This document shows positions 1-36,383 of a stretch of 64,000 nucleotides of DNA, in pieces (the stretch's first letter is position 1; every line of letters begins with the position of its first letter). The DNA lies in the NCBI GenBank assembly GCA_964187785.1, contig OZ076409.1, positions 72,356,001-72,420,000 of the forward strand. Reading direction: 5' to 3'. The notes under the pieces are model-generated. The model was not told where the DNA came from, made no database searches, and saw nothing but the letters and a program-made list of their open reading frames with translations. Both the position numbers and the translations under genes were made by a program. This DNA is from Amphiscolops sp. MND2022 (taxonomy: Eukaryota).

Positions 1-1200
1 TCGTGGCTGTGGCATTGCACTGAACACAATAGATGTAGAGTTTTTACATTTTTTGAAAATTCGACATTTTTGATTTTTTTTCACTACTATCAGTACACTA
101 TATGTCAAAAACACCTCTGAAAAAAATTATTATTTGCTTAAAATTGGAAACCTTGGTATCCATGGTTTCTGTCGGAACCTACTCGCTGCCAAACACCCAA
201 CAGTTTGCATCCAATGTGAATTTAAAATTTTTTTCGAGGTCATAAGGGTTTCACAAGGTTTTCATAACCTAGTATTAAACTACAAACTGGTCATTTTCAA
301 CATAATATCTTTGTCGAGGCATGTCGGATATAGTCCTATTGCTCACGAACGGTCCTACTGGCAACGTAATAACCATTTATAGAAATGTAAAGTTATAAAA
401 AAATTTTTTCACCCGGTCTTCAGTCATTTTTCAGTCATTCGGAACTTAACTTAGAAAAATTTCGACCAAAATATCCATTTTTTGTCAGGTCGAAAAATCA
501 AATTAGGAATTTTAAGCAAAATTATTAACTCTGACGTAACCCATGGGGCCCATGATACTCAAAACAACGATTGACACTGGTATCAATGGCTCCAATAACA
601 TATGAGTCGCGATAAGACGTTATTTTGAACATTACGTCTCAATTGAGGTAAAGATCTCGCAAGCCAGCGATCACTGTGAAATGTGATTTCATCAAAAATT
701 TACTCCTTTTTGTCAATCACTATGTGCACAGAATGCGTAGGGTGCGTTTCAGCACTATAATGAGGTTTTTGAAGGCATCGAGTTGCTCAAAGGATGGTAT
801 GAGACATTTTTGTCCCATATACTACTGTATTTTCCAAAATTTTTAGCCCAATATCTGGAAATACAAACTTAACAAAATACTTTCAACTACTTTATTCAGA
901 GGTTACAATATAGATGAACACTGTGGTTGATCAGAAACTTTCATCTCTTTCGTTTTCCGAAATATTTCCCTTCGCATGTGTTACATTCGTAGCAGAAAAA
1001 AAAATCGAAACTGAAAAATACGCAATTTTGCTAATATAGAATCGCACTGATTGTGCCTAAAAACTCTTTAAACACTTCTAACGCAACCTTAGGCACCGAA
1101 AATGATCGAAAATGCTATTCACAATGGTGACATGTGCTCTTTCTACGATCCTGGCTGGACAAGGTTTGCATATTTTTCAAGTACCTGTCAGCTAAATCTT

Positions 1201-1248
1201 GTGATAGCCTTTTCAGTTGGCCTTGTGTCAACTTGGGAAGGCTATCAC
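1201..1248 (+). other. Long bulged hairpin, GATAGCC class (representative; in A and C units)
   Basis: GTGATAGCCTT...AAGGCTATCAC outer stem plus an AGTTG/CAACT inner stem. Confidence 0.8.
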
Positions 1249-1573
1249 ATCAAAAAACCATCAACAAAAATAATTTTTGTTTATTGGATCTTACAGTCGA
1301 TACTTTTTTTCGTGATTCTATACTACCGTTAGTATATTTCATCAGGTCACCTTACGATTGCATTCAGTCTTTGATAAAAACCTATGAACTCAAAGTCACA
1401 TTTATATATTTTTTGGCCAAAAAAACATCAAAAATATCTAAAATATATAAAATAGAGTCTTTAACATTTTTACGTTTCAAGTTTTTGCCGTTATTAAGCC
1501 AATCAACTTCCTACAGCCACGCTCTCTGTCATACTGTACAACGCCACATAGTGTTGCGACGTGCACAGTCTGT

Positions 1574-1593
1574 GGGCATGCCGAGGCATGCCC
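1574..1593. promoter_or_regulatory. Conserved 20-bp palindrome matching the p53-family response element consensus (representative; one per unit end)
   Basis: GGGCATGCCG|AGGCATGCCC matches RRRCWWGYYY x2 at 19 of 20 positions with zero spacer. It is present before all 25 junctions. Function is not demonstrated. Confidence 0.45.
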
Positions 1594-1615
1594 TTCGACG
1601 ACGTATGCCGAATAC

Positions 1616-1645
1616 CGCGGGCCTACGCCCGCGCTCCCCGGCTAG
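1616..1645 (+). other. Helitron-type 3' terminus: GC-rich hairpin plus CTAG (representative)
   Basis: A 7-bp stem lies 8 nt upstream of CTAG. Canonical Helitrons end in a subterminal hairpin followed by CTRR. Confidence 0.7.
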
Positions 1646-3634
1646 GTGGGCGGGGGTAATTCCCCAACAAAAATTACGGCCGGCGGGTTGGGTCCTGCCG
1701 GACGTTCAAATAGCGCGAAGCATCTAGTAGAAAACAAGGAGTCCTGAAACAGCGATTTTAAAATTGAACCGTTAGAATTTGGTTTTAGATTGCAAGCGGC
1801 CCTAAAATCCCCATACGAATGGAAGTTCCTGCTGGCGTTAAGCGATTGAAATAATATATAAAAAGTTATGGCCCATTTTTGGGTCACCGAGAAGGTCAAA
1901 ATGAAGAAAATTTTAACTAAGTTGCTGATAACTCAAAATGTGTTAATTTTTGGACTTTGACTGTGAAACAAGCTTGGAACCTTCATTTCGTGGCTGTGGC
2001 ATTGCACTGAACACAAAAGATGTAAAGTTTTCACATTTTTTGAAAATTCGACATTTTTGAATTTTTTTTCACTACTATCAGTACACTATATGTCAAAAAC
2101 ACCTCTGAAAAATTTTTTTATTTGCTTAAATTTAGAAACCTTGGTATCCATGGTTTCCGTCAGTACCTACTCGCTGCCAAACACTCAACAGTTTGCATCC
2201 AATGTGAAAATAAAATTTTTTTCGAGGTCTTAGGTGTTTCACAAGGATTTCTCAACTTAGTATCAATTTACAAATTGGTCATTTTGAACACATTATTTTC
2301 ATCGAAGCGTGTCATATACCGCCCTAATGCTCACGAACGGGCCTACTGGCAACGTTGGAACCATTTATAGTAATAAAAAGTTTTAAAAAAATTTTTTCAC
2401 CCCGTCTTCAGTCATTTTACACACTTTCGGAACTTAACTTAGAAAAATTTCAACCAAAAACCCATTTTTTGTCAAGTCGAAAATTCAAATTCAGCTTTTT
2501 AAGCAAAATAAATAAATCTGACATAACCACTGGGGCCCATGAAACTCAAAACCACGATTGAGACTGGTATCAATGGCTCCAATAACATATGAGTCGCGAT
2601 AAGACGCTATTTTGAGCAAAACATCTCAATTGAGGTAAAGATCTCGCAAGCCAGCGATCACTGTGAAATGTGATTTCATCAAAAATTTACTCTTTTTTGT
2701 CAATCACTATGTGCACAGAATGCGTAGGGTGCGTTTCAGCACTATAATGAGGTTTTTGAAGGCATCGAGTTGCTCAAGGGGTGGTATGAGACATTTTTGT
2801 CCCATATACTACTGTAGTTTCCAAAATTTTTACCCCAACATCTGAAAATACAAACTTGACAAAATACTTTCAACTACTTTATTCAAAGGTTACAATATAG
2901 ATGAACACTGTGGTTGATAAGAAACTTTCATCTCTTTCGTTTTCGGAAATATTTCCGTTCGCATGTGTTACATTCATAGCAGAAAAAAAAATCGAAACTG
3001 AAAAATACGCTATTTTGCTGATATAGAATCGCAATGATTGTGCCTAAAAACTCTTTAAACACTTCTAACGCAACCTTACGCACCCAAAATGATCGAAAAT
3101 GCTATTCACAATGGTGACATGTGCTCTTTCTACAATCCTGGCTGGACAAGGTTTGCATATTTTTCAAGTACCTGTCAGCTAAATCTTGTGATAGCCTTTT
3201 CAGTTGGCCTTGTGTCAACTTGGGAAGGCTATCACATCAAAAAATCATCAACAAAAATAATTTTTGTTTATTGGATCTTACAGTCGATACTTTTTTTCGT
3301 GATTCTATACTACCGTTAGTATATTTCATCAGGTCACCTTACGATTGCATTCAGTCTTTGATAAAAACCTATGAACTCAAAGTCACATTTATATATTTTT
3401 TTGCCAGAAAATAACATCAAAAATATCTAAAATATATAAAATAGAGTCTTTAACATTTTTACGTTTCAAGTTTTTGCCGTTATTAGGCCAATCAACGTCC
3501 TAGAGCCACATCCTGCCACATACTGTACAACGCCACATAGTGTTGCGACGTGCACAGTCTGTGGGCATGCCGAGGCATGCCCTTCGACGACGTATGCCGA
3601 ATACCGCGGGCCTACGCCCGCGCTCCCCGGCTAG
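1646..3634 (+). mobile_element. Unit 2, family A (1989 bp)
   Basis: Starts GTGGGCGGGGGTAATTCCCC and ends hairpin+CTAG. Appears identical to unit 7 (offset 14781; the ORF-track translations are identical). Confidence 0.8.
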
Positions 3635-4901
3635 GTGGCCGCGTCTTTTAGATGGACTTTTAGCCCTGAGGCGCGGGTAGGGTCCTGCGCCGAAACAGAG
3701 AAATTATACTACTGCACATAGCCCCGGTCCAGACACGATCTCGAAAACTGACCGTTAGAAATTCCTGAAAATTTGCATGTGGCCCCCAATTGGCGAGCAA
3801 TGAAAAAGTGTAGGAGGTCGTTTTTCCCAAATTCCACTGTGAGAGGAGATATATGAAAAAAACGGACCCCAAAATGACGAAATTTTCACTTTTTGACCAA
3901 AAATGTGACATTATCTCCTCAGACAAGGCTCGGAGCAAAATTTGACAGAACCCAAACCTGCAGCAGACTGTTAGAGCAGTGCACACAGTAAGTTTCAAGG
4001 AAATCGGATAATCACATGTGGAGAAATTGACGTTCTTCCGGCGAAATTTTTCGCAAATGCAGTCTATCTCTGCCGTTTTTTGCCCAAAATTTTTCCGAGA
4101 CCCTCTCCTAAAGGCCTCCCCTGGCCCAATTTCTTCCCAAAAAAACCATTTGGCCCTAAATACGAGGTTTCAGCGTTCCAGCATTCCCCAGTGAAAAGTT
4201 ATGGGACTTAGAAATTTTTCAAATATTTTCAAATTTTTTCTAAAAAAGTTCAGGCCGCCCAAAGTGAAGAAACTTCCACACAACTAGTATTGCAAGTGAA
4301 TGCATGTGGAAAGCCCTGCACTTGACCAGAAAAATGCCGTTTAGAACGTCTTTTTATCTTTACTTGATGTTGACTTATGATCTTTTGAGTAACGTATAAC
4401 ACGTGATCACAGTAGTGAAAATCCTAATCAATAATTTTCAAACAATAACGCATGAAAAGAATCTGGAAAGGTTCCGATGGGTCAGTCGGGATGTCTGAAG
4501 CATGTGTACATTCCCGTAGTGTATAGCGGATGTTTTGGGACTTATTAGAAATTGTGATATATTTTATAAAAGTCTTTGTTTCTCATAGAATCTCATGCAG
4601 TTGAGTACATTCCATCTCCCTCTCAGGGGAGATGTGAATGTACGTTTGCCAAATGCCTTGTAAAGTTCACATGTTTGATGGACTTAACTAAAAAAACAAG
4701 TGTGAGTTGCGTTTGCCGAATCGCTACAGCAAAAAATACTAAAACTTTAGTCAGATTGAATGGTTTTTGTCTTTAGTGTTTCTTCTTGTATAGCCGACTT
4801 CCACATCCAATTATCAACGCCCACCGTCCGTAGGCATGCCGAGGCATGCCTTTCGACGACGTATGCCAAATACCCAATGCCACACAGTCTTTCCCCGCTA
4901 G
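3635..4901 (+). mobile_element. Unit 3, short family S1 (1267 bp)
   Basis: Starts GTGGCCGCG. Stem GGCGC/GCGCC flanks GGGTAGGGTCCT. GTACATTC hairpin at 4605-4643, A/T variant palindrome at 4832-4851, ends GCTAG. Confidence 0.75.
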
Positions 4902-6893
4902 GTGCGGGGGGGAAACCCCTTCCTTTATCTTGGAGGATTCGGGTAGGGTCCTGAATCCGAGTTCAGTGCCGCCAGCTCTCAGTAGAAATCTGGGCATTTT
5001 TTTGCGATCTCGTGATCTAACCATAGGATTTTAAAGTTGGAGCGGCCCCCACCAGATTTTCCAAAGTTATTCGCCCCCCACCGGGTTCCAGCGTGATTGA
5101 AATATTTTGTCGGGGTACACGGGCGACCGTTAGGGGTCATTTTAGGGGTAAAATTTATATAATGTCGCATAACTTTTTTCCTGTTGGATTAAAACTTTGG
5201 GACCCTGCTAAAAGTTTCTTGACCGTGTTGCGGGGGCTCCGGAGGTCCAAACCAAATTTTTCTATCTTGAAGCTATCTCCAAGTACCCCCCCGCCCAAAC
5301 CGTTATTTTTCCGGAAACGCAGGTTTTTGACCCGGAAGGAGTCGTCTGAGCGCGGGGTCGTTAGGTGATGTATTGGGGACGGCCTTGAGACGAAGCGGGG
5401 GACATGTAATTTGCCGACCCCAGTTTACCCCCCGGACGGAAAATGACCGTTATATGAGCGGGATAAATGCCCCCCTCCACGTTTTACCGCTATTTCCGAT
5501 GGGAAGGAGTGGGAGTAACGCTTCGGGTGCCATATATCAAAAGTAGGTTTAGACAAGGACCTATCGGAAACATGTGGTTTGGGACCCCCTGACCCAACCC
5601 GTTAGCGGGAAATGGGGCTTCAGCCTCCTTTTTTTACAGTTAAAACCGGAAAATGGGCATTGAGGGGTAAATATCTCGTGAACGCGTGGAGCAATCGTGT
5701 CCATCACTACTACAAGGTTTCATACCCATGATATGGTGCCTTCAGGGGGGCAAACAGATTTCCGCTATCTATCACCGTTACGGACTTGGCCCCCCAGCCT
5801 AACCGCTATGTGACCGGAAATGTCACTTTTTGAGCCCAAAGGGTCAGTCCGAGCGCGGCATGGTTAGCTAACTTATTGTAGTACTCAATGAGACGAGTTG
5901 GGGGATATAGTTTCAGTCACCCCCCGTTACCCCTTGTGACCGGAAATGACCGTTATGTGGGTAAAAATGCGATTTTTGTACTTTTTGAAGGGCATTTAGG
6001 TGCGGAAGGAATGGTAAAAGGTGCTTGGACACTATATGATGTAATGGAGGTCGTGAGGAGAGCATTCGGAAGTAACCGTTACGTTGACCCCAAAGTCCCC
6101 CTGGTACCGTTAACAACCGGAAATGGCCAAATTTTGTGTTTATAGGGTACAAATGTTTGGTATTTTATGGATAAAAGTACCTGGAAGGTGTTTTAAAGGC
6201 CTCCAGAAGTGAACATAGTCATGAAACTTTGTGGGGGGTAACGGTATATAGCACCGGAAGTCCAAACCGTTAGTTACAGAATAGGTTTTTTGGTTTCAAA
6301 ATGTCTTTAGGCGTAGTTTTGTGGGTTGAATCGTCATAATATCAACTAATACGGACTTTTTTCGGAAATAAAATTTTTTCACATTAGTTTCAGGGACCTC
6401 CAATGTTTCAGTCAACATAACCGTTACATTTTGATAGCCTTTCAAGTTGGCCTGGTGTCAACTTGGAAGGGCTATCCTTCTAAAATCGTTAATCAAGAGT
6501 GTTTTTGGGTAGGTATATGTTGCATTAGTACCAATTAGAGCTTCATCAACAGTTTGCCAACGGCAAAAACGATGTCGTGATAATTCCGTTATAAGAATAT
6601 TAATTAACAAATTGTTTCCAAAGTTGATTTTTTCCATTCGAAATGTGTCCCAATGCCACCAAATTGAATAAAATAATAAATGGTATTGACTAAAACTAAA
6701 TAACATTGAAAAAGAAGCTCAACATTTTTAATAGGTCTCATAATGGAAGCTGAAACCTCACGTTTTAACTTAATTAACGTCAACGCCACATACTTTACAT
6801 CAACGTCCGCCGTCTGTGGGCATGCCGAGGCATGCCCTTCGACGACGTATACCAATTACATATATATCTACACCCACCCGCGGTAGCAGCTAG
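4902..6893 (+). mobile_element. Unit 4, GC-richer family C (1992 bp)
   Basis: Starts GTGCGGGGGGGAAACCCC. Body is homologous to units 17, 23 and 25 but not recognisably to family A. GATAGCC hairpin at 6433-6476, palindrome at 6818-6837. Confidence 0.75.
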
Positions 6894-9130
6894 GTGGGCG
6901 GGGGTAATTCCCCAACAAAAAAATCGGCCGGCGGGTCGGGTCCTGCCGGCCGTCCAAAATCAAAATCCTCCTAGTAGAAAACGGCATGTCAAACGAGCTA
7001 TTTTTTTATTTAACCATACGAATTTCACCATTTTTTGCATGCGGCCCTGAAATGGCCATACGAGACGAAGTTCCTGCTGACGTTTTGCGATGTAAATGTT
7101 TTATAAAAAGTTATGGCCTATTTGTCATTCACCTAGAAGGGTAAAATGAGGAAAATTTTAGCAAAGTCGCTGATAACTCAAAATGTGTTAATTTTTGGAC
7201 TTTGACTGTGAAACAAGCTTGGAACCTTCATTTCGTGGCTGGGGCATTGGACTGAACACAAAAGATGTAAAGTTTTTACGTTTTTTGAAAATTCGACATT
7301 TTTGAAATTTTTTTCACTACTATCAGTACCCCATATGTCAAAAACACCTCAGAAAAAAATTTTTATTTGCTTTAAATTGGAAACCTTGGTATCCATGGTT
7401 TCTGTCGGGACCTACTCGCAGCCAAACACTTAACAGTTTGCATCCAATGTGAAAAGAAAATTTTTTTCGGGGTCATAAGCGTTTCACAAGGATTTCTCAA
7501 CTTAGTATCTATTTACAAATTGGTCATTTTGAACACATTATTTTCATCGAAGCGTGTCAGATACCACCCTAATGCTCACGAATGGGCCTACTGGCAACGT
7601 TGGAACCATTTTTAGTAATAGAAAGTATTAAAAAAATATTTTCACCCGGTCTTCAGTCATTTTTCAGACATTCGGTACTTAACTTAGAAAAATTTCGCAT
7701 CAAAAACCCATATTTGGTAGGGTCGAAATTTGAAATTCAGTTTTTTATGCAAAATTATTAACTCTGACGTAACCAGTGGAGCCCATGATACTCAAAATCA
7801 CGATTGGGACTGGTATCAGTGGCTCCAATAACATATGAGCCGCGATAAGACGTTATTCAGAGCAAACGCTCTAAATCGAAGTAAACATCTCTGAAGCCTG
7901 GGATCACAGTGAAATGTGATATCACCAAAAGTTTACTCTTTTTTGTCAATCACTATGTACACAGAGTGCGTAGGGTGAGTTTCAGGACTATAATGAGGTT
8001 TTTGAAGTAATCGCGCTGCTCAAGGGGTGGTATGAGACTATTTTTTCCCATATACTACTACATTTCCATAAATTTGCAGTCCATTGTCTTGGAAAGATAA
8101 CTTCACAAAAACAATTTTTGTACTCTATTCAGTTATTAGAATAAAGTTGAACACTGTGGTTGATCAGAAATGCTCAATTCTTTTGGTTTTTAAAAAAATT
8201 CCTTCGCATTCGTTACATTTGTGGAAGGAAGGTTATCAGTAGCTCCAAAAAAAAACGAAATTTAGCACGAACAGACATGCAACGATGCAAAGCAAAAACG
8301 TTTTTACAACTTCCGACGTCATTATTTTACCCAAGAAGATTGAAAATATCATTCGCAATGCTGTCATTCGCTATATATACGATCGCGGTCAATTTACAAA
8401 CATTTAGATTTCATTGTTCTGCTTGAAAACCAATTTTTGTCAGGTCGAAATTTTAAATTTTGCCTGGGGAGCAATACCCTTCACGCTGAAGTAAACAGTG
8501 GGGCCCAAGTTACTCAAAAACAAGAAAGAGACTGCTACAATATGTCCTAATAACATATGGACCACGATAGTACACTTTTCACACAAAAAACTCTCATCCG
8601 AAGTAAATATGTTGAAAGCTTTTAATCACCGTGAGAAGTGATTTCATCAAAAAGTAACTCTTTTTTGTCAATCACTATTTACACAGAATTTGTAAAGTTA
8701 GTTTGAGTCATGAAATGAGGCTTTACCGTAATATGGGTTGCTCAAGGTGTTATATAAGACAAAAACTTCCTCTTTTCTACTAGCTTCTTCAAATATTTCA
8801 ACCCTTTGTCACAATAAGTTAATATTCAAAATATCTTTGAAATGTATCTTTATGTTGGGGTGAAGTCTAAGAACAATAACTATGATCGAAGAATGCTAGT
8901 ACTGGTGTTTGAACCATGTCCGGATGAACAAATCACAAAATCATCAAAAAATTGTTCCCTTTTTTGGTTATTTTGGCAGTACTAAAAATGTTAGCTGATA
9001 AATAATTTTTTCGATGGCACCATTGGATTCCTCTCAAAAAGTTGGTTATATGACCTGTGTAATAACCCCGTATCTTTTCAATTTAAATATATTTAAAAAG
9101 CCAACTATTTTGACCAAAATCCTAAAAATC

Positions 9131-10405
9131 ATACCATTTCCTAAAAATTTTCAAATGCACCCCATTTGACGTATAAGATAAGCACAGAAAACTATCATTT
9201 ACCGATCAACTCTACTCCCATTGTAGATTATTAGAATTTTGTTTAGAATGAATTTTGATGGATATTAAAAAAATTTTGAACCCTCCAAAAATGGGCCAAA
9301 ATTACACGAAAAAATTGACCTTAAAATACCAAAATGTCAAAAAATCATCAAAACCACGGCTTCTTGGGGTTCTATCAACTCCGCGTGGTCCACAGAGTAT
9401 GCTAAAACAGGATTTACCCGTTTTTGAGCAATATGTGAAAAAGCCGACATTTTTGGGAAAGAAAAACATACCATTTCCTAAAAAAATTCAAATGCACGTA
9501 ATTTGCCGTATTAGAATAGCACAGAAAACTATCACATACCAATCAACTCTACTTTCATTGCAGATGAACAGAATTTTGTTTAGAATAAATTTTACCGGAT
9601 AATAAAAAAATTTGAATCCTTCAAAAATGGGCCAAAATTACACGAAAAAATGGACCTTAAAAATTTAAAATGTCAAAAAATCGTCAAAACAACAGCTTCT
9701 TGGGGTTCTATCAACTCCACGAGGTCCACAGAGTATGCTAAAACAGGTTTTACCCGTTTTTGAGCAATATGTGAAAAAGCCGACATTTTTGGGAGAGAAA
9801 AACATACCATTTCCTAAAAAAATTCAAATGCACGCCATTTGCCGTATGAAAATAGCACAGAAAACTATCACATACCAATCAACTCTACTTTCATTGCAGA
9901 TGAACAGAATTTTGTTTAGAATAAATTTTACCGGATAATAAAAAAATTAGATTCCTTCTAAAATGGGCCAAAATTACACGAAAAAAAGGACCTTAAAATT
10001 TTAAAATGTCAAAAAATCATCAAAACCACGGCTTCTTGGGGTTCTATCAACTCCACGTGGTCCACAGAGTATGCTTTATAGAGAGAATAAAACCCGGTTT
10101 TACCCATCTTTGAGCAAAATGTGAAAATACCGACATTTTTGGAAAAGAAAAAAATACCATTTTCTAATAAATTTCAAATGCACGCCATTTGCTGTATGAG
10201 AATAACACAGAAAGCTGTCACATACCGATCAACTCTACTTCCATTGTAGATTATCAGAAGTTTGTTTTGAATAAATTTTGATGGTTAATAAAAATAATTG
10301 AATCCATCAAAAATGGGCCAAAATTACACGAAAAAATTGACCTTAAAATATCAAAATGTCAAAAAATCATCAAAACCACAGTTTCTTGGCGTTCTATCAA
10401 CTCCA
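9131..10405 (+). repeat. Internal ~336-bp tandem repeat, ~3.8 copies
   Basis: ATACCATTT anchor at 9131, 9468, 9804 and 10154. The third copy carries a ~14-bp insertion near 10076 that unit 15 lacks. End coordinate is approximate. Confidence 0.9.
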
Positions 10406-10688
10406 TATGATACCAAACCAGGTACTGCCAATCGTTTGAGTTATAATAAAAAAACGTCTTTTTTGGCAAGAATTCCATACCATAAATAATGTTCCATATA
10501 AGAAGCGAATCATTTCAGATATATACCCTGTTCATTTTTTTAATATTACCGATTATTAATTTAATAGATGTTTTGAATGTGAGCTTCCTAAAAGGTTCAG
10601 GTGTGATGTTACGTAAAGAGAACCTTAGTTTCATCGAAATCTCAATTGAATATGTCCAATCCTAACCATCAGATAACAAGAAACACTT

Positions 10689-10731
10689 AAGTACATTCCA
10701 TCTCCCCATCGGGGGAGATGAGAATGTACTT
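10689..10731 (+). other. Long bulged hairpin, GTACATTC class (representative; in L, S1 and S2 units)
   Basis: AAGTACATTC-CATCTCCCC-[ATCG]-GGGGAGATG-(A)-GAATGTACTT. Confidence 0.8.
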
Positions 10732-11663
10732 TCGAGAAGCCAAATACGTCCAACATTCAAACTTTTGTAACTTTGTATGTAACTCCTGAAACGAAGAAGG
10801 AATAAAATTGTTTCTGGTACATACATGAGTCTTTACTTCAGCTTCTATTTCTGCTGAACAAAACCATTCGACTCTTTTGCCGGAGTTAAGATCGATTGTA
10901 TTACCCAGTGAACAAAGGCATGACTGAAAACGTTTACTACTTTGTTCATAATTTTCCGGCCTTCCGAAATGATGAAACGTCCACATAACTAAGATAGCAA
11001 GTGAATGACTGCGAAATGCACCTTATTAGATGAGGTAAATAACGTGTAAAACTCTCCTTTATCCTAACATGAGGTTGAGTAATGATCATTTGAGAATAGT
11101 TTGATATGTGAATACAATAGTATAAAACAAGTACATTTTATATGAATAACGCCGTGGAAAGCGTTCAGAAAGGACAGTAGGCTTGTTTGGAACATGTATG
11201 TGTGGTGTCCCTTGGTGGCGTTCGCTTAGTGTATATGTCGAGGGGTATTCGAGTTGTTATGATAGAATTTACACACAAGTCTTTTGTTTTTTGGTTTTTT
11301 TAAAATGTCGTTAAGTACCTGCATTCTATCCCCTTCTCAGAGATGACGTGAAGTTACGTTTGCTAAATAAATGTCATCGAAAGATCACACTCCCGACGAA
11401 ATTAACTATCTTAACACGTGTTTAGAATTTTAAATAAACAACCGTATAAGATTATTATATTTCATTGAGTTTGATGAAGTCTTTTGTTCTTCTCACTACT
11501 ATTTCAACCAATACACATATCCGTTACCATATCACATGTCTCCATTAGTACAACGCCACATAGCGTTCCGACGCCCACAGTCTGTGGGCATGCCGAGGCA
11601 TGCCCTTCGACGACGTATGGCAAATGGAGCCATGCCCGCCGTCTTTACGGCGGTAGCGGCTAG

Positions 11664-14600
11664 GTGGGCGGGGGTAATTCCCCAACTAAAAAATCGGCCG
11701 GCGGGTAGGGTCCTGCCGGCCGTCCAAAATCAAAAATATACTAGTAGAAAACGGCCGGTCAAACGAGCTATTTTTTTATTTAACCGTTAGAATTTGGGTT
11801 TAGATTGCATGCGGCCATGAAATGGCCATACGAATCGAAGTTCCTGCTGACGTTTTGCGATTGAAACACTTTATAAAAAGTTATGGCCAATTTGTCAGTC
11901 ACCTAGAAGGGCAAAATGAGGAAAATTTTAACAAAGTCGCTAATAACTCAAAATGTGTTATTTTTTGGACTTTGACTGTGAAACAAGCTTGGAACCTTCA
12001 TTTCGTGGCTGTGGCATTGCACTGAACGCAAAAGATGTAAAGTTTTTACATTTTTTGAAAATTTGACATTTTTGAAATTTTTTTCACTACTATCAGTACC
12101 ATATATGTCAAAAACACCTCAGAAAAAAAATTTTATTTGCTTTAACTTGGAAACCTTGGTATCCATGGTTTCTGTCGGAACCTACTCGCAACCAAACAAC
12201 CAACAGTTTGCATCCAATGTGAAAATAAAAAATTTTTCTGGGTCATAAGCGTTTCACAAGGATTTCTCAACTTAGTATTAATTTACAAAATGGTCATCTT
12301 GAACACAATATTTTCATCGAGGCTTGTCGGCTATAGCCTTAATGTTCTAGAACGGTCCCACTGGCAACGTAGGAACCATTTATAGTAATAGAAAGTTTAA
12401 AAAATATATTTTCACCCTGTCTTCAGTCATTTTTCAGTCATTCGGAACTTAACTTAGAAAAATTTCGACCAAAATACCCATTTTTTGACAGATCGAAAAT
12501 TCAAATTCAACTTTTTAAGCAAAATTAGTAACTCTGACGTAACCAGTGGGACTCATGATACTCAAAAACACGATTGGGACTGGTACCAATGGCTCCAATA
12601 TCATATGAGCCGCGATAAGACGTTATTTTGAGCAATACGTCTCAATTGAGGGAAACATCTCGCAAGCCTGGGATCACAGTTAAAAGTGATTTCGTCAAAA
12701 ATTTACTCTTTTTCGTCAATCACTATGTACACAGAGTGCGTAGGGTGAGTTTCAGCACTATAATGCGGTTTTTGAAGGAATCGGTCTGCTCAAGGGGTGG
12801 TATGAGACATTTTTTTTGCATGTAGTACTATATTTCTCAAAACTTTTAGCCCAATATCTCGAAAAGCTCACTTCGCAAATTACTTTCAGTTACTCTATTC
12901 GAAGCTTAGAATATATATGAACAGTGTGGTTGATCAGAAACTCTTGACTATTTTGTTTTTGGAAAAAAACTGCCTTGCATGTGTTACATTAGTGGCAGGA
13001 AAAATACCAGTAGCTCCAAAAATCACAATTTTGGACGGACAGACCTGCAATGATGCAAAGCAAAAACGTTTCAACAACTTCTGGCGCCACTTTTTTAACC
13101 CAAGAGGTTCGAAATTACTATTAACAATGCTGACATTCGCTATAAATAAGATCGAGGTCAATTTACTAACACTTAGGTTATACATTTATATCTGAGAAAC
13201 CATTCTTTGTCAGGTCGCAATTTTAAATTTAGTTTGGGAAGCAATACTTTTCACTCTGAAGCAAACCGTTGGGCCCAAATTACTCAAAAACTACAAAAAG
13301 ACTGTCACCATATGCCCTAATAGCATATGAGATTCGACCGTATGTTTTTAACACAAAAACTCTCATCCGAAGTAAACATGTTGAAAGCCTTGAATCACCG
13401 TGAGAAATGATTTCATCAAAAAATATTCCTTTTTCGTCAATCTTTATCTACACAGAACACGTTGTGTCATTTTCAGCCGTGAAATGAGCTTCTACCGTAA
13501 TATGGGTTGCTCAAGGTGTTGTATAAGACAAAAACTTCCTCTTTTCTACTATCTTCTTCAAATATTTCAACCCTTTGTCACAAGAAGTTAATATTCAAAA
13601 TCTCTTTGAAATGTTTCTTTAGGTTGGGGTGAAGTGTTAGAACAATAATTATGATCGAAGAATGATAGTATTGGTGTTTGGACCATGTCCGGATGAACAA
13701 ATTGCAAAATCATGAAAAATTTCTTACCATTTTTGGTCATATTGTCAGTACTAAAAATGTTAGCTGAAAAAGAATTTTTTTGATGGCACCATTGGATTCC
13801 TCTCAAAAAGTTGGTTATATGACCTGTGTAATAACCCCGTATCTTTTCAATTTAAATATATTTAAAAAGCCAACTATTTTGACCAAAATACTAAAAATCA
13901 TACCATTTCCTAAAAATTTTCAAATGCACCCCATTTGACGTATAAGAATAGCACAGAAAACTATCACATACCGATCGACTCTACTTCCATTGTAGATTCC
14001 CAGAATTTTGTTTAGAACAATTTTTGACGGATGCAAAAAAATTTAAACCCTCCAAAAAAGGGCCAAAATTACACGAAAAAATTGACCTTAAAATTTTAAA
14101 ATGTCGAAAAATCATCAAAACCACAGCTTCTTGGGGTTCTATCAACTCCACGTGGTCCACAGAGTATGTTAAAACAAGTTTTACCCGTATTTGAGCAATA
14201 TGTGAAAAAGCCGACTTTTTTGGGAATGAAAAACATACCATTTCCTAAAAAATTTCAAACGCACCCCATTTGACGTATAAGAATAGCACAGAAAACTATC
14301 ACATACCGATCGACTCTACTTCCATTGTAGGTTACCAGAATCTTGTTTAGAACAATTGTTGACGGATGCAAAAAAAAATTTAAACCCTCCAAAAATGGGC
14401 CAAAATTACACGAAAAAATTGACCTTAAATTTTTAAAATGTCAAAAAATCATCAAAACCACAGCTTCTTGGGGTTCTATCAACTCCACGTGGTCCACAGA
14501 GTATGCTAAAACAGGTTTTACATGTTTCTGAGCTATATGTGAAAAAACCGACATTTTGGGGAAGAAAAACATACCATTTCTTAAAAAATTTCAAATGCAC

Positions 14601-16426
14601 GCCATTTGCCGTATGAGAATAGCACAGAAAACTATCACATACCGATCAACTCTACTTCTATTGTAGATTATCAGATTTTTGTTTAGAACAAATTTTTATG
14701 GATATAAAAAATTTTTAAACCCTCCAAAAATGAGCCAAAATAACACGAAAAAATGGACCCTAAATTTTTAAAATGTCAAAAAATTATCCAAACCACAGCT
14801 TCTTGGGGTTCTATCAGCTCCACGTGGTCCACAGAGTATGCTAAAACAGGTTTTGCCCGTTTTTGAGCAGTATATGAAAAAGCCGACATTTTTGGGGAAG
14901 AAAAACATACCATTTCCTAAATAATTTCAAATGCAGGCAATTTGCCGTATGAGAGTAGCACAGAAAACTATCACACACCGATCAACTCTACTTCTTTTGT
15001 AGATTATCAGAATTATGTTTAGAGTAAAGTTTTATGGATATGAAAAATTTTTATACCCTCCAAAAATGGGCCAAAATGACACGAAAAAATTGACCTCAAA
15101 TTTTTAAAATGTCAAAAAATTATCCAAACCACAGCGTCTTGGCGTTCTATCAACTCCAAATGACCTTCAGAGTATACCAAACCAGGTATTGCCAATCTTT
15201 TGAGCAATATTTAAAAACACCGACTATTTGGCAAGAACACCATAATATGTTCCATATAAGAAGTGAATCATTCCACATATATACCCGGTCTAATATTTCC
15301 AAATTAGCGATAACATTTATACATGATGGTTTTTGAAAGTGAGCTTTATAAGAGGTTGAGATGTAATAATACGTAAATGGACCCTAAGTTTCATTGAAAT
15401 CTCAATGGAATACGTCCAATCAACTTCAATCCTAACTATTATATAACAAAAAACACTTGAGTACATTCCATCTCCCCATCGGGGGAGATGAGAATGTACT
15501 TTTCAAAAGCCAAAAACTTCGAATTTTAAATCTTTTGTAACATTGTATGTAACTGTTGAAACGATGAACGAATGAAAATGCTTCTAGTACCTTCATCAAT
15601 TTTTGCTTCAGCTCCTATTTCTGCAGAACAAAACCAAAAGACACACTTACAGCAGTTAAGTTCGATTGTATAACTCAGTGAGTAAAGGTATGACTGAGGA
15701 AGTTCACAAGTTGTTTCAAAAGTTTCCGGCCTTCCAAAATCATGAAACGTCCACACAACCAAGATAGCAAGTGAAAGAATGCTGAATGCACCTTATTAGA
15801 TGAGATAAATAATGTGTGGAACTTGCCATTATCTCAAGATGACGTTGATTTATGATCTTTTAAGGATAGTTCGATATGTGACCACAATAGTGGAAAACTT
15901 ATTACTATTTGAAGAACACCGTGGAAAGCGTTCAGAAAGGACAGTATATTTGTTTCGAGCATGCATGCGTGTGTTCCTTTGGTGACGTTAGCTTAGTGTA
16001 CATGACGGAGGTATTCGAGAGATTATGATAGAGTTTACTCACAAGTCTTTGTTTTTTTAAACTTTCTATGCCGTTGAGTACATTCGTAAGGTACATCCAT
16101 CCCCTTCTCTGGGAATGTACGTTTGCCAAATGACTGTCATCCAAAATTCGTAATCCGGACGAGTTTAACTACATAAACATGTGATGAGCGTTTTCAATTC
16201 ACAACCGAATAACATTTTTTTTCTCGAAAATGATGATGGTTTTGATTTTGATGTCTTCTACTTTTATCATCATGCAAACGACCTTACCATGTCTCTCTTC
16301 TGTCGTCATTTGTACAACGCCACATAGCGTTCCGACGCCCACCGTCTGTGGGCATGCCGAGGCATGCCCTTCGACGACGTATGCCAAATGAGCCATACCC
16401 GCACTCTGGAGTGCGGTAGCGGCTAG
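11664..16426 (+). mobile_element. Unit 6, family L (4763 bp)
   Basis: Same layout as unit 5 but a different subfamily. Terminal hairpin CCGCACTC-TG-GAGTGCGG. Near-identical to unit 18 over most of its length. Confidence 0.78.
13900..15240 (+). repeat. Internal ~336-bp tandem repeat, ~4 copies
   Basis: Anchor at 13900, 14235, 14571 and 14907. End coordinate is approximate. Confidence 0.9.
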
Positions 16427-18415
16427 GTGGGCGGGGGTAATTCCCCAACAAAAATTACGGCCGGCGGGTTGGGTCCTGCCGGACGTTCAAATAGCGCGAA
16501 GCATCTAGTAGAAAACAAGGAGTCCTGAAACAGCGATTTTAAAATTGAACCGTTAGAATTTGGTTTTAGATTGCAAGCGGCCCTAAAATCCCCATACGAA
16601 TGGAAGTTCCTGCTGGCGTTAAGCGATTGAAATAATATATAAAAAGTTATGGCCCATTTTTGGGTCACCGAGAAGGTCAAAATGAAGAAAATTTTAACTA
16701 AGTTGCTGATAACTCAAAATGTGTTAATTTTTGGACTTTGACTGTGAAACAAGCTTGGAACCTTCATTTCGTGGCTGTGGCATTGCACTGAACACAAAAG
16801 ATGTAAAGTTTTCACATTTTTTGAAAATTCGACATTTTTGAATTTTTTTTCACTACTATCAGTACACTATATGTCAAAAACACCTCTGAAAAATTTTTTT
16901 ATTTGCTTAAATTTAGAAACCTTGGTATCCATGGTTTCCGTCAGTACCTACTCGCTGCCAAACACTCAACAGTTTGCATCCAATGTGAAAATAAAATTTT
17001 TTTCGAGGTCTTAGGTGTTTCACAAGGATTTCTCAACTTAGTATCAATTTACAAATTGGTCATTTTGAACACATTATTTTCATCGAAGCGTGTCATATAC
17101 CGCCCTAATGCTCACGAACGGGCCTACTGGCAACGTTGGAACCATTTATAGTAATAAAAAGTTTTAAAAAAATTTTTTCACCCCGTCTTCAGTCATTTTA
17201 CACACTTTCGGAACTTAACTTAGAAAAATTTCAACCAAAAACCCATTTTTTGTCAAGTCGAAAATTCAAATTCAGCTTTTTAAGCAAAATAAATAAATCT
17301 GACATAACCACTGGGGCCCATGAAACTCAAAACCACGATTGAGACTGGTATCAATGGCTCCAATAACATATGAGTCGCGATAAGACGCTATTTTGAGCAA
17401 AACATCTCAATTGAGGTAAAGATCTCGCAAGCCAGCGATCACTGTGAAATGTGATTTCATCAAAAATTTACTCTTTTTTGTCAATCACTATGTGCACAGA
17501 ATGCGTAGGGTGCGTTTCAGCACTATAATGAGGTTTTTGAAGGCATCGAGTTGCTCAAGGGGTGGTATGAGACATTTTTGTCCCATATACTACTGTAGTT
17601 TCCAAAATTTTTACCCCAACATCTGAAAATACAAACTTGACAAAATACTTTCAACTACTTTATTCAAAGGTTACAATATAGATGAACACTGTGGTTGATA
17701 AGAAACTTTCATCTCTTTCGTTTTCGGAAATATTTCCGTTCGCATGTGTTACATTCATAGCAGAAAAAAAAATCGAAACTGAAAAATACGCTATTTTGCT
17801 GATATAGAATCGCAATGATTGTGCCTAAAAACTCTTTAAACACTTCTAACGCAACCTTACGCACCCAAAATGATCGAAAATGCTATTCACAATGGTGACA
17901 TGTGCTCTTTCTACAATCCTGGCTGGACAAGGTTTGCATATTTTTCAAGTACCTGTCAGCTAAATCTTGTGATAGCCTTTTCAGTTGGCCTTGTGTCAAC
18001 TTGGGAAGGCTATCACATCAAAAAATCATCAACAAAAATAATTTTTGTTTATTGGATCTTACAGTCGATACTTTTTTTCGTGATTCTATACTACCGTTAG
18101 TATATTTCATCAGGTCACCTTACGATTGCATTCAGTCTTTGATAAAAACCTATGAACTCAAAGTCACATTTATATATTTTTTTGCCAGAAAATAACATCA
18201 AAAATATCTAAAATATATAAAATAGAGTCTTTAACATTTTTACGTTTCAAGTTTTTGCCGTTATTAGGCCAATCAACGTCCTAGAGCCACATCCTGCCAC
18301 ATACTGTACAACGCCACATAGTGTTGCGACGTGCACAGTCTGTGGGCATGCCGAGGCATGCCCTTCGACGACGTATGCCGAATACCGCGGGCCTACGCCC
18401 GCGCTCCCCGGCTAG
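16427..18415 (+). mobile_element. Unit 7, family A (1989 bp)
   Basis: Apparent exact copy of unit 2, with different neighbours on both sides. Confidence 0.8.
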
Positions 18416-20402
18416 GTGGGCGGGGGTAATTCCCCAACAAAAATTACGGCCGGCGGGTTGGGTCCTGCCGGACGTCAAATAGTGTGAAACATCCAGTAGG
18501 AAACGGCGACATAAATCAGCGATTTTAAAATTTAACCGTTAGAATTCGGACTTGGAGTGCATGCGGCCCCAAAATGCCCATACGAATCGAAGTTCCTGCT
18601 GACGTTAAGCGATAAAAACATTTTATAAAAAGTTATGGCCCATTTTACGTTCACCTATAAGGGTAAAATGAGGAAAATTTTTACAAAGTCGCTGATAACT
18701 CAAAATACATTAATTTTTGGACTTTGACTGTGAAACAAGCTTAGAACCTTCATTTCGTGGCTGTAGCATTGCACTGAACACAAAAGATGTAAAGTTTTTA
18801 CAATTTTTGAAAATTCGACATTTTTGATTTTTTTTTCACTACTATCAGTACACTATATGTCAAAAACACCTCTGAAAAAAATTATTATTTGCTTAAAATT
18901 GGAAACCTTGGTATCCATGGTTTCTGTCGGAACCTACTCGCTGCCAAACACCCAACAGTTTGCATCCAATGTGAAATTAAAATTTTTTTCGAGGTCTTAG
19001 GTGTTTCACAAGGATTTCTCAACTTAGTTTCAATTTACAAATTGGTCATATTGAACACAATATTTTCATCGAAGCTTGTCAGATACCGCCCTAATGCTCA
19101 CTAATGGGCCTACTCGCAACGTTGGAACCGTTTATAGTAATAGAAAGTTTAAAAAAAATATTTTCACCCGGTCTTCAGTCATTTTTCAGTCATTCGGAAC
19201 TTAACTTAGAAAAATTTCGACCAAAATACCAATTTTTTGTCAGGTCGAAAAATCAAATTCAGATTTTTAAGCAAAATTATTTACTCTGACGTAACTAGTG
19301 GGCCCCATGATACTCAAAAACACGATTGGGACCGGTACCAAGGGCTCCAATTTCATATGAGCCGCGATAAGACGTTATTTTGAGCAACACGTCTCAATAG
19401 AGGTAAACATCTCGCAAGCCTGGGGTCACAGTGAAAAGTAATTTCATCAAGAATTTACTCATTTTTGTCAATCACTATGTGCACAGAGTGCGTAGGGTGC
19501 GTTTCAGCACTTTAATGAGGTTTTTGAAGGCATCGGTCTGCTCAAGGGGTGGTATGAGACATTTTTTTCCTGTATACTACTGTATTTTCCAAAACTTTTA
19601 GCCAATTATCTGGAAAAACTAACTTGACAAAATACTTTCAACTACTTTATTCAAAGGTTACAATATAGATGAACACTGTGGTTGATCAGAAACTTTCATC
19701 TCTTTCGTTTTCCGAAATTTTTCCCTTCGCATGTGTAACATTCGTAGCAGAAAAAAAAATCGAAACTGAAAAATACGCAATTTTGCTAATATAGAATCGC
19801 AATGATTGTGCCTAAAAACTCTTTAAACACTTCTAACGCAACCTTACGCACCCAAATTGATCGAATATGTTATTCACAATGGTGACATGTTCTCTTTCTA
19901 CGATCCTGGCTGGACAAGGTTTGCATATTTTTCAAGTACCTGTCAGCTAAATCTTGTGATAGCCTTTTCAGTTGGCCTTGTGTCAACTTGGGAAGGCTAT
20001 CACATCAAAAAACCATCAATAAAAATAATTTTTGTTTATTGGATCTTACAGTCGAAACTTTTTTTCGTGATTCTATACTACCGTTAGTATATTTCATCAG
20101 GTCACCTTACGATTGCATTCAGTCTTTGATAAAAACCTATGAACTCAAAGTCACATTTATATATTTTTTTGCCAGAAAATAACATCAAAAATATCTAAAA
20201 TATATCAAATAGAGTCTTTAACATTTTTACGTTTCAAGTTTTTGCCGTTATTAGGCCAATCAACGTCCTAGAGCCACATCCTGCCACATACTGTACAACG
20301 CCACATAGTGTTGCGACGTGCACAGTCTGTGGGCATGCCGAGGCATGCCCTTCGACGACGTAAGCCGAATACCGCGGGCCTACGCCCGCGCTCCCCGGCT
20401 AG
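18416..20402 (+). mobile_element. Unit 8, family A (1987 bp)
   Basis: Family A body with the standard termini. Its 5' variant is shared with unit 10. Confidence 0.78.
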
Positions 20403-21681
20403 GTGGTCGTTAGCATGGGATTTTCTTTATGAGCGTAGTCCACTTTTTTTAGGCCGGGGTAGGGTCCCGGGCCGTTACCAATTTCTTACGGAGGAAAAAT
20501 GTGAAAATCTGCGAGTTTAAAAAATTGGCCCGTACGATTTGGCTGAAAATTGGCATACAGCATCGTCTTGGTAAACAAATGACTTTGTCCTAGTGACATT
20601 TTGCCCAGAAAATTCAAAAAGTTGGTCAAATTGAAAATTTTTTGACCGTCTAAGGCTAAAATTTGACTTTTTCGCTTTTTTTGGTCAATTTCCTCAGAAC
20701 TGGTTGATTTTGGTGAAGTAAGTCATAAGAGGTTATAAGGTCTGCAAATAGCCATCAATTGGCTTGCATAATCAGATTTTGTCAAAAGTGTTTAGTTTTT
20801 TCAAAATTTCACACTTTTTTTTCATTTCAGTGTTTTTTGATACAATTTATTGAATTTTTACTAAGTTCCACTAAATATTTTTAAAATGTTTTTAAAAAAC
20901 CTTTTTTTGCACGTTTTTGATGTTTTTTGCTCTCCCATATAGGTTTTCGCATACGTGGAACCTGAATCTGACAACGAAATAATTTTATTCCGCAGTTCAA
21001 CTTACGCCATTTTTAATAGTGAAAAATCACTCATTTTCAATCTAACGAGTGAAAATATCAGAATTTAAAAACCTAAAGTTGAGTTTAAGGCGACTTACAG
21101 GTAGAAACAAATGCTCAGAAACAAACTGATTTCTTGTATTAGCTAAAGAAAGCCTTTAAAATTCTTTTTACTTTCTTTAAATCAAAATTCGACACTTTTC
21201 ATGAAATTTGTCAGTGGAAAAAATTTATCATTTTTTTAAATTTAAAACTTGCTTTGTTGGTCATTTCCGTTAGTCATTAGTAGCTGTGTAATGCTCCAAA
21301 GCCTTTCAAGTTCTTTTGACCCTATTTGAAAATTTTTGATACTGCATAATCAATCCGAGAGAACGAAACAGTTGTGTACATTCCATCTCCCTCTTGGGGG
21401 AGATGAGAATGTACTTCCTAAAGTCCAGGTACTACAGATCATATTTGGTTTTATGCGACGCCCTCTATGCTAGTGCATATAAATACAAGTTGTTTGGCTG
21501 GATTTTGCTTCTGACTTGACGTATACTGTACGTTTGGTACTGACAATACCCATCATTTACATAACAAACGTCAACGCCACATACCCTCACCAACGTCCAT
21601 AGTCCGTAGGCATGCCGAGGCATGCCTTTCGACGACGCGCGCCAAACACAAGCGCGCCCGCACTTTTGCGGTAGCGGCTAG
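20403..21681 (+). mobile_element. Unit 9, short family S2 (1279 bp)
   Basis: Starts GTGGTCG with a unique, very AT-rich body. Has the GGCCGGGG-TAGGGT-CCCGGGCC stem-loop, a GTACATTC hairpin at 21376-21414, the A/T variant palindrome at 21608-21627 and terminal hairpin CCGCA-CTTT-TGCGG. Confidence 0.75.
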
Positions 21682-34600: not shown

Positions 34601-36383
34601 ACCAATCAACTCTACTTTCATTGCAGATGAACAGAATTTTGTTTAGAATAAACTTTACCGGATAATAAAAAAATTTGATTCCTTCTAAAATGGGCCAAAA
34701 TTACACGAAAAAATGGACCTTAAAATTTTAAAATGTCAAAAAATCATCAAAACCACGGCTTCTTGGGGTTCTATCAACTCCACGTGGTCCACAGAGTATG
34801 CTTAACCCGGTTTTACCCATCTTTGAGCAAAATGTGAAAATACCGACATTTTTGGAAAAGAAAAACATGCCATTTTCTAATAAATTTCAAATGCACGCCA
34901 TTTGCTGTATGAGAATTACACAGAAAGCTGTCACATACCGATCAACTCTACTTCCATTGTAGATTATCAGAAGTTTGTTTAGAATAAATTTTGAAGGATA
35001 ATAAAAAAATTTGAATCCATCAAAAATGGGCCAAAATTACACGAAAAAATTGACCTTAAAATATCAAAATGTCAAAAAATCATCAAAACCACAATTTCTT
35101 GGCGTTCTATCAACTCCATATGATACCAAACCAGGTACTGCCAATCGTTTGAGTTATAATAAAAAAAACGTCTTTTTTGGCAAGAATTCCATACCATAAA
35201 TAATAATCATGTTCCATATAAGAAGCGAATCATTTCAGATATATACCCTGTTCATTTTTTTAATATTACCGATTATTAATTTAATAGATGTTTTGAATGT
35301 GAGCTTCCTAAAAGGTTCAGGTGTGATGATACGTAAATAGAACCTTAGTTTCATCGAAATCTCAATTGAATATGTCCAATCTTAACCATCAGATAACAAG
35401 AAACACTTAAGTACATTCCATCTCCCCATCGGGGGAGATGAGAATGTACTTTCGAGAAGCCAAATACGTCCAACATTCAAACTTTTGTAACTTTGTATGT
35501 AACTCCTGAAACGAAGAAGGAATAAAATTGTTTCTGGTACATACATGAGTCTTTACTTCAGCTTCTATTTCTGCTGAACAAAACCATTCGACTCTTTTGC
35601 CGGAGTTAAGATCGATTGTATTACCCAGTGAACAAAGGCATGACTGAAAACGTTTACTACTTTGTTCATAATTTTCCGGCCTTCCGAAATGATGAAACGT
35701 CCACATAACTAAGATAGCAAGTGAATGACTGCGAAATGCACCTTATTAGATGAGGTAAATAACGTGTAAAACTCTCCTTTATCCTAACATGAGGTTGAGT
35801 AATGATCATTTGAGAATAGTTTGATATGTGAATACAATAGTATAAAACAAGTACATTTTATATGAATAACGCCGTGGAAAGCGTTCAGAAAGGACAGTAG
35901 GCTTGTTTGGAACATGTATGTGTGGTGTCCCTTGGTGGCGTTCGCTTAGTGTATATGTCGAGGGGTATTCGAGTTGTTATGATAGAATTTACACACAAGT
36001 CTTTTGTTTTTTGGTTTTTTTCAAATGTCGTTAAGTACCTGCATTCTATCCCCTTCTCAGAGATGACGTGAAGTTACGTTTGCTAAATAAATGTCATCGA
36101 AAGATCACACTCCCGACGAAATTAACTATCTTAACACGTGTTTAGAATTTTAAATAAACAACCGTTTAAGATGTTTATATTTCATTGAGTTTGATGAAGT
36201 CTTTTGTTCTTCTCACTACTATTTCAACCAATACACATTTCCGTTACCATATCACATGTCTCCATTAGTACAACGCCACATAGCGTTCCGACGCCCACAG
36301 TCTGTGGGCATGCCGAGGCATGCCCTTCGACGACGTATGGCAAATGGAGCCATGCCCGCCGTCTTTACGGCGGTAGCGGCTAG
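31620..36383 (+). mobile_element. Unit 15, family L (4764 bp)
   Basis: Near-identical to unit 5 after the first ~0.6 kb. GTACATTC hairpin at 35409-35451. Confidence 0.78.
33858..35125 (+). repeat. Internal ~336-bp tandem repeat
   Basis: Same repeat as 9131-10405. Ends are approximate. Confidence 0.88.

What the first reader, a model, noticed from the sequence alone, without database searches (positions are those of the whole stretch)
1574..1593. Invariant double-GGCATGCC palindrome with a compensatory change; near-perfect p53-family site in every unit end
Seen: the most conserved sequence across all families ends ~50-58 nt before the unit end. 21 copies read G-GGCATGCC-GA-GGCATGCC-C. Four copies (4832, 21608, 38304, 41091) read A-...-T, so both outer bases change together. 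Flanking GTC...GAC can extend the stem. Known: p53/p63/p73 bind two RRRCWWGYYY decamers, with CATG cores and zero spacer favoured, and both variants fit 19 of 20 positions. Inference: this is either a hairpin/cruciform or dimer site for the mobilising enzyme, or a host p53-family site linking the element to germline or DNA-damage signalling. In the latter case the array holds 25 such sites in 64 kb.
Basis: partly seen in the sequence, partly recalled or inferred. Interest (0 to 1): 0.72.

Follow-up and report, generated by a model that had tools for sequence, protein, structure and literature searches.

The report
p53-like site in stacked mobile elements
Every unit of a long head-to-tail stack of gene-less mobile DNA elements carries, near its end, the same near-ideal match to the p53 binding site inside a longer unchanging block, which may tie the elements to a host p53-type protein but may instead be the site read by their own jumping enzyme.

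Summary
In detail: 25 of 25 unit ends carry the 18-mer, 21 as G..C and 4 as A..T, 50-59 nt before an invariant GCTAG|GTG junction. The window is a same-orientation array of gene-less elements with Helitron-like right ends (hairpin plus CTAG). They lack the 5' TC and terminal inverted repeats. On a measured human-p53 matrix the site is near-optimal (delta logKd 0.16 and 0.26; next best in the window 1.07). Chance is 1-2 in 100,000 for a random hairpin and 0.06-0.2% for a double palindrome. The compensatory change is one event and fits both hypotheses. The unchanging block is 35 bp, not 20. None of 16 inner substitutions that p53 tolerates occurs, so p53 alone cannot explain the constraint. Other terminal hairpins vary in sequence while this one does not, which points to a protein that reads sequence. 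Best reading: an obligatory cis-site bound by a p53-type tetramer alongside the element's own machinery (0.40). An enzyme-only site is close behind (0.35). Host, binding and autonomous partner could not be tested.

The parts
1574..1593 (+). 20-bp double palindrome (two 8-bp palindromes at 10-bp period, GA centre), major variant; 21 of 25 copies
4832..4851 (+). A..T variant of the 20-mer (also 21608, 38304, 41091); one haplotype with a linked change at -4
1568..1602 (+). 35-bp near-invariant block containing the 20-mer; 3 variable sites, one event each, among 16 haplotypes
1616..1633 (+). subterminal GC-rich hairpin 6-8 nt before CTAG; sequence differs between end types, pairing kept (20 of 25 ends have a 5-8 bp stem there)
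1641..1648 (+). invariant unit junction GCTAGGTG (25 of 25; no other occurrence on the + strand); right and left flanks assort freely across it
1653..1665 (+). first left-end hairpin (A- and C-type units)
1682..1699 (+). second left-end hairpin: conserved G-rich loop and inner pairs, outer stem with compensatory changes (4 of 9 pairs change on both sides)
1200..1249 (+). internal long hairpin type H1 (17 of 24 complete units, shared by unalignable bodies)
4605..4643 (+). internal long hairpin type H2 (7 of 24 complete units; never together with H1)
1646..3634 (+). one complete family-A unit (1989 bp), 100% identical to the non-adjacent unit 16427-18415
1..64000 (+). head-to-tail array: 24 complete and 2 partial gene-less units of 7 body types, all in one orientation

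Best explanation
The 20-mer is the core of an obligatory cis-site in the right end of non-autonomous, probably rolling-circle (HUH-type) elements that stack at their own GCTAG|GTG junction. It is kept by sequence, not just by pairing (shown). Its shape, two palindromic half-sites one helical turn apart, suits a dimer of dimers on double-stranded DNA (inferred). The binder is most likely a p53-family tetramer, either the host's p53/p63/p73 or a p53-fold protein of the missing autonomous element (inferred). The flanks of the 35-bp block and possibly the folded single strand are read by the element's own machinery, which explains why the site is more fixed than p53 needs (inferred). The bound tetramer would open or license the end, or drive transcription across the junction of a circle or tandem pair, coupling mobilisation to germline or DNA-damage states (speculative).
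For: Predicted delta logKd 0.16 and 0.26 on the measured matrix of PMC2275157 Table 2; the paper gives -7.11 for p21 and -7.46 for p53R2. The next best 20-mer in the window scores 1.07. Chance for a perfect 9-bp-arm inverted repeat is 0.4-2.4e-5, and 0.06-0.23% even if the double-palindrome architecture is granted. The two departures from the best site fall at the central positions 10-11, which carry small penalties. The one symmetric change seen is among the 4 cheapest of 27. Internal control: the left-end hairpin has 4 of 9 pairs with two-sided changes, against 1 of 12 here, and the subterminal hairpin occurs with several different stems. Precedents: p53 sites in the non-autonomous zebrafish transposon EnSpm-N6_DR (PMC3485254, passages); HSF-1 sites in Caenorhabditis Helitrons (PMC6927752, abstract).
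Against: None of 16 inner substitutions costing 0.10 or less occurs. About 7.7 are expected at the flank rate (P 5e-4), or 2.7 at a third of that rate (P 0.07); within family A alone the test is not significant (P 0.15). Every change at position 10 would slightly raise human-p53 affinity, yet it is fixed. The 3' flank TTCGACGAC is equally fixed and has no p53 meaning. The elements code for nothing, so a transcription factor has no evident target. The distance to the junction (50-59 nt) is not helically phased. The same double-palindrome hairpin occurs at chance frequency in phages and bacteria, which lack p53. The host is unknown. The matrix is for human p53.
Confidence: 0.4

Rival explanations
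1. Enzyme-only site: the 35-bp block is the recognition site of the missing transposase or Rep (10-bp direct repeats read like iterons, or an imperfect hairpin read by sequence and shape). The p53 match is coincidence.
For: It explains the whole 35-bp invariance, including flanks and centre. The two variable features are neutral for structure: a bulged base at -4 and the outer stem pair. PMC10288648 (passages) states that hairpins and palindromes are broadly used in HUH recognition and that pMV158 RepB binds 11-bp tandem direct repeats apart from its nick site. The element has three more conserved cis-modules that no host factor explains.
Against: It leaves a 0.06-0.2% (given the architecture) to 1e-5 (given any hairpin) coincidence with the best p53 site, even after allowing for several hairpins and several candidate motifs. 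No enzyme is at hand to test.
Confidence: 0.35
2. A generic hairpin that has been homogenised: the block is the longest homology shared by all ends, so recombination or conversion keeps it uniform, and only pairing is under selection.
For: Units are mosaics. Markers on either side of the block fail the four-gamete test in 22 of 98 pairs. The hairpin is stable (-8.5 kcal/mol). Halomonas-group genomes carry the same kind of hairpin with a variable loop in an intergenic position.
Against: No G..T or A..C recombinant occurs in 25 copies, although the A..T haplotype sits in four bodies with three downstream types. Other hairpins in the same ends diverge in sequence. Arms that are themselves palindromes are not needed for a hairpin (0.4-0.7% by chance).
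Confidence: 0.15
3. Host domestication: the array is kept for the host's benefit, as a p53-family sink, enhancer cluster or subtelomeric damage sensor, and the elements are no longer mobile.
For: 25 near-optimal sites in 64 kb. Helitron-like repeats pile up at subtelomeres in Hydractinia (PMC11934779, first part of text) and cap Paramecium germline chromosomes (PMC13085455, sections 14 and 18).
Against: All four cis-modules and precise full-length ends are kept in 24 of 24 complete units, and two non-adjacent copies are identical. Both fit recent mobility, not a decaying scaffold. No gene lies in the window.
Confidence: 0.05

Closest known systems
Non-autonomous canonical Helitrons (HLE1), as defined in PMC11417382 (passages)
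   Same: 3' CTAG preceded by a short GC-rich hairpin of variable sequence; no coding; conserved ends around variable bodies; head-to-tail repetition
   Different: Units start with GTG. No TC occurs in any register of the junction on either strand. CTAG is followed by G in 25 of 25 junctions. The array mixes seven body types at full length. There is an extra fixed 35-bp block and one of two internal hairpins.
Helentron-associated elements (HLE2/HINE), e.g. Cg_HINE of Crassostrea gigas (PMC7492417, passages)
   Same: modular ends with several hairpins; internal satellite-like repeats (336 bp, about 4 copies, in the 4.76-kb family)
   Different: no 11-18 bp terminal or subterminal inverted repeat between the ends; no TT boundary
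Paramecium third-clade Helitrons (PMC13085455, sections 14 and 18)
   Same: absolute orientation bias, interchangeable right termini, satellite-filled ORF-less derivatives, sequence-targeted insertion
   Different: they end in CCAA and are flanked by telomeric repeats; here units abut directly at an 8-bp junction
Replitrons (PMC10288648) and Cryptons (PMC3212892)
   Same: short direct repeat at both termini (the shared 8-bp junction can be read so), no terminal inverted repeats
   Different: no transposase to compare. Replitrons were reported from plants, algae and protists. The 11-13 bp inverted arms typical of tyrosine-recombinase sites are not seen around the core (alignments).
p53 response elements carried by transposons, e.g. 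zebrafish EnSpm-N6_DR (PMC3485254, passages); HSF-1 sites in Caenorhabditis Helitrons (PMC6927752, abstract)
   Same: a host-factor consensus spread by a non-autonomous DNA element
   Different: here the site is the single most fixed sequence across otherwise unalignable families, as if mobility itself needed it

Membership tests
p53-family response element | two RRRCWWGYYY decamers, spacer 0-1 | tested here: met
   19 of 20 positions, spacer 0, 25 of 25 copies; consensus as quoted
p53-family response element | high predicted affinity | tested here: met
   logKd -7.45 and -7.35 against -7.61 for the best site; human p53 matrix only
p53-family response element | variation at positions the protein tolerates | tested here: not met
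   0 of 16 cheap inner substitutions seen; 2.7-7.7 expected; the only change is at positions 1 and 20
p53-family response element | host encodes a p53-family protein that occupies the site | not testable with these tools
   no genome held; no protein-DNA tool
Helitron HLE1 | 3' CTRR | tested here: met
   CTAG at 25 of 25 ends; the exact cut within the 8-bp junction is not known
Helitron HLE1 | short hairpin just before the 3' end | tested here: met
   5-8 bp stem 6-8 nt before CTAG in 20 of 25 ends; weak or absent in U02, U03, U16, U22, U24
Helitron HLE1 | 5' TC | tested here: not met
   all 25 units start GTG; no TC in the junction on either strand
Helitron HLE1 | insertion between A and T | tested here: inconclusive
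   inside the array CTAG is followed by G; no solo copy or outer flank is in the window
Helitron HLE1 / HLE2 | RepHel transposase in an autonomous partner | not testable with these tools
   no such domain in 89 frames from 7 representative units; no genome
Helitron HLE2 / HINE | 11-18 bp (sub)terminal inverted repeats | tested here: not met
   best end-to-end matches are 8 bp or less, or AT-rich non-terminal matches, with none conserved, in 24 units
Helitron HLE2 / HINE | internal tandem repeats between conserved modules | tested here: met
   336-bp repeats in 5 units; longer internal duplications in C-type units
Replitron | short direct terminal repeats | tested here: inconclusive
   the 8-bp junction is compatible, but cannot be told from end plus start without flanks
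Crypton / tyrosine-recombinase element | 6-8 bp core between conserved 11-13 bp inverted arms | tested here: not met
   flanks of the 8-bp core vary and are not a conserved inverted repeat; judged by eye on alignments
known structured RNA | Rfam or tRNA match | tested here: not met
   0 hits

The most novel reading that the evidence does not exclude
An undescribed class of gene-less rolling-circle replicons with four obligatory cis-modules and fixed size classes, which integrate into their own 8-bp junction to build cassette-like arrays. Their mobilisation needs a p53-family tetramer bound near the right end, so the genome's damage sensor would act as a licensing cofactor of a transposon, or the autonomous element would encode its own p53-fold protein.
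Probability: 0.2. Interest if true: 0.82.

Novelty: new variant of a known kind. Interest (0 to 1): 0.52.

Why it matters
p53 sites in transposons are usually read as passengers that the host later uses. Here the site is the one sequence that seven otherwise unrelated bodies all keep, which suggests the elements themselves need it. If a p53-family protein is the binder, the system tests directly whether DNA transposons exploit p53 rather than merely being restrained by it. If the binder is the element's enzyme, the array still defines a rolling-circle-like family with non-canonical ends and self-targeted insertion. Whether it is already in Repbase or Dfam could not be checked.

Tried and rejected
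Whole-genome tabulation was not possible: no genome is held. Relatives were not found. In viral contigs four strict patterns gave 0 hits, and two loose patterns gave 12 and 21 hits at about chance level without the element's architecture. In genome contigs the strict pattern gave 0 and a loose one gave 7 unrelated hits. The single metagenome scan used a pattern without the palindrome, meant as an unbiased test, and returned 3 loci with no similarity to the units. Sequencing runs: one holder, X1, share 0.12; no RNA holder listed. Laying X1 on 1646-6893 placed 33 contigs, with listed pieces on three body types at depth about 2-6. The shown rows give no variant in the palindrome, but the tables were cut and cover there is not shown, so this says nothing on invariance. 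ncRNA or tRNA array: no hits. Coding remnants: of 89 frames of 52 aa or more, 1 passed a Pfam cut-off (influenza PB2 domain, E 7e-6); it scored E 0.41 against solved structures and is treated as chance. Local tandem amplification: adjacent family-A copies average 90.9% (n=7) against 89.0% for non-adjacent pairs (n=59), and the only identical pair is non-adjacent. Assembly artefact from circles: considered unlikely, because flanks switch at an 8-bp core and not at the longer shared block. A second p53-like site in two long units (11179, 35899) is within chance (P 0.18) and absent from the three sister units. The exact 18-mer is in no paper of the library. Searches linking Helitrons with p53 listed no paper whose title or abstract start describes such an element; one search showed only 40 of 1,213, and subscription journals, Repbase and Dfam were not searched. 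No supplements were read. Earlier scan notes by place and by sequence were empty, as was the first word search.

Full report
Observation. The 18-mer occurs exactly 25 times, all on the + strand, against 0.01 expected. 21 copies have G..C outside it and 4 have A..T, at 4832, 21608, 38304 and 41091. The 20-mer ends 50-59 nt before the G of a CTAG. It is the only 18-mer common to all 24 complete units, and it is the core of the longest invariant run in the family-A and long-A alignments (38 and 40 bp).

Context. The window is one array of 24 complete and 2 partial units joined at GCTAGGTG, which occurs 25 times on the + strand, once per junction. There are seven body types: A (12 complete copies, 1981-1990 bp, 83-100% identical), long A (5, 4749-4770 bp, with about four 336-bp repeats), A' (1), C (3, 1971-1993 bp), long C (1, 2790 bp), B (1267 bp) and D (1279 bp). 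A and C bodies do not align apart from short modules, yet have nearly the same length, as do B and D. 15 right-end types and 12 left-end types assort across the 8-bp core: the commonest right end is followed by five different left ends. Neighbours are not clearly more alike than non-neighbours (90.9%, n=7, against 89.0%, n=59), and the one identical pair is five units apart. I infer serial, oriented insertion of whole units at the junction, plus recombination between copies, and not local amplification. No ORF, Rfam family or tRNA explains the units. CpG is not depleted (o/e 0.83-1.13). The host is unknown; a eukaryote is inferred from the absence of genes.

Anatomy. Each unit has four conserved modules. 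(1) The left end: GTG, then a hairpin with a G-rich loop whose outer stem covaries. (2) One of two mutually exclusive internal long hairpins, H1 in 17 and H2 in 7 of 24 units. (3) The 35-bp block holding the 20-mer. (4) A GC-rich hairpin 6-8 nt before CTAG in 20 of 25 ends, with several different stems. Module 4 is the Helitron right-end signature as defined in PMC11417382 (passages). The 5' TC is absent in every register and no terminal inverted repeats exist. So the elements look like rolling-circle elements, but they are not filed as HLE1 or HLE2. Replitron- or Crypton-like short direct repeats cannot be excluded without flanks (PMC10288648 and PMC3212892, passages).

How good is the p53 match? 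With the measured single-substitution matrix for human p53 (PMC2275157 Table 2, passages), the two variants score 0.16 and 0.26 log units below the best possible site, and the next best 20-mer in the window scores 1.07. A random perfect inverted repeat with 9-bp arms reaches 0.16 with probability 0.4-2.4e-5. If one grants that the site is a doubled 8-bp palindrome, the probability is 0.06-0.23%. These figures are not corrected for the choice of hairpin or of motif. Such doubled palindromes do occur at chance frequency in organisms without p53: 12 viral hits, some with the ideal centre, and 7 bacterial hits.

What the variation says. The compensatory change is one event. Positions -4, -1 and +1 are in complete linkage and each maps once on the tree of 16 haplotypes. 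It is a transition pair at the outermost position. It keeps pairing and is among the 4 cheapest of 27 symmetric swaps for p53, so it does not discriminate. More telling is what does not vary. In the outer flanks 19 of 25 sites vary, with 1.44 changes per site, while 32 of 35 sites in the block are fixed. Against hairpin-only selection: 11 of 12 pairs never vary, whereas the left-end hairpin has two-sided changes in 4 of 9 pairs. Against p53-only selection: none of 16 cheap inner substitutions occurs, with 7.7 expected at the flank rate (P 5e-4) or 2.7 at a lower rate (P 0.07). The test within family A alone is not significant (P 0.15). The fixed TTCGACGAC flank has no p53 meaning. Homogenisation could contribute, since markers across the block fail the four-gamete test in 22 of 98 pairs (38 of 88 upstream, 0 of 21 downstream; recurrent mutation is not excluded). 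However, no G..T or A..C recombinant was seen.

Mechanism. Shown: the block is part of every right end and is held by sequence. Inferred: a symmetric protein reads it. I put 0.40 on a p53-family-type tetramer acting with the element's machinery, because the match is hard to dismiss and the two-half-site geometry needs no other assumption. I put 0.35 on the transposase alone, which explains the whole block but leaves the match as coincidence. A homogenised generic hairpin gets 0.15, host domestication 0.05, and 0.05 is unassigned. If the host has a p53-family protein with human-like specificity it would probably bind these sites whatever their origin; whether binding is selected is the open point. 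The unphased 50-59 nt distance to the junction argues against a rigid contact with the nicking complex on duplex DNA, and fits chromatin opening, transcription or a folded single strand.

Known and new. Host-factor sites in non-autonomous DNA transposons are known: p53 in EnSpm-N6_DR (PMC3485254, passages) and HSF-1 in Caenorhabditis Helitrons (PMC6927752, abstract). Oriented pile-ups of Helitron-like DNA at chromosome ends are known (PMC11934779, first sixth of text; PMC13085455, sections 14 and 18 part 1). The exact 18-mer is in no paper of the library, and the searches listed nothing on such an element. Those searches are incomplete, and Repbase and Dfam were not available. Three unchecked notes of this scan describe parallels in other genomes: Helitron-like elements homing to a sequence like their own start, a Polinton-like fragment with p53-like promoter motifs, and viral p53-like regulators. 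I did not test them and take them as leads only.

Verdict. This is a real, non-random, sequence-read cis-site in a non-canonical rolling-circle-like element array. The p53 reading is plausible but unproven and cannot be the whole constraint. New variant of a known kind; interest 0.52.

Noticed in passing
window 1200-1249 (H1) and 4605-4643 (H2): Every one of 24 complete units has exactly one of two long internal hairpins, shared across unalignable bodies and never together; possibly alternative second-strand priming or packaging signals.
   Followed up: partly
whole window: Unit lengths cluster across unrelated bodies (1267/1279; 1971-1994 for A, A' and C; 2790; 4749-4770), which suggests size selection or common descent.
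   Followed up: no
window 1641-1665: CTAG is its own reverse complement; on the minus strand the A- and C-type left ends also read hairpin, short spacer, CTAG, so both ends resemble a Helitron right terminus.
   Followed up: partly
window 1646-3634 and 16427-18415: Two non-adjacent units are 100% identical, while other units are mosaics of several sources, which suggests recent insertion or conversion.
   Followed up: partly
window 4902-6893 and 38378-41167: C-type bodies are rich in two short same-strand motifs (ACCGTTA 9-11 times; CCGGAA[AG]T 4 times) that resemble Myb and ETS sites (recalled, not tested).
   Followed up: no
window 11179-11199 and 35899-35919: A second, weaker p53-like site with a 1-bp spacer in two long units; within chance and absent from three sister units.
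   Followed up: yes
window 40109-40534 (-): A frame passes the Pfam cut-off for an influenza PB2 domain (E 7e-6) but scores E 0.41 against solved structures; treated as chance.
   Followed up: yes
L037, L038, L040, L042, L043 near 5001-5018: Halomonas-group genomes have the same doubled GGCATGCC hairpin with a variable loop next to what I recall as the end of the RNase P RNA gene; probably a terminator and unrelated.
   Followed up: partly
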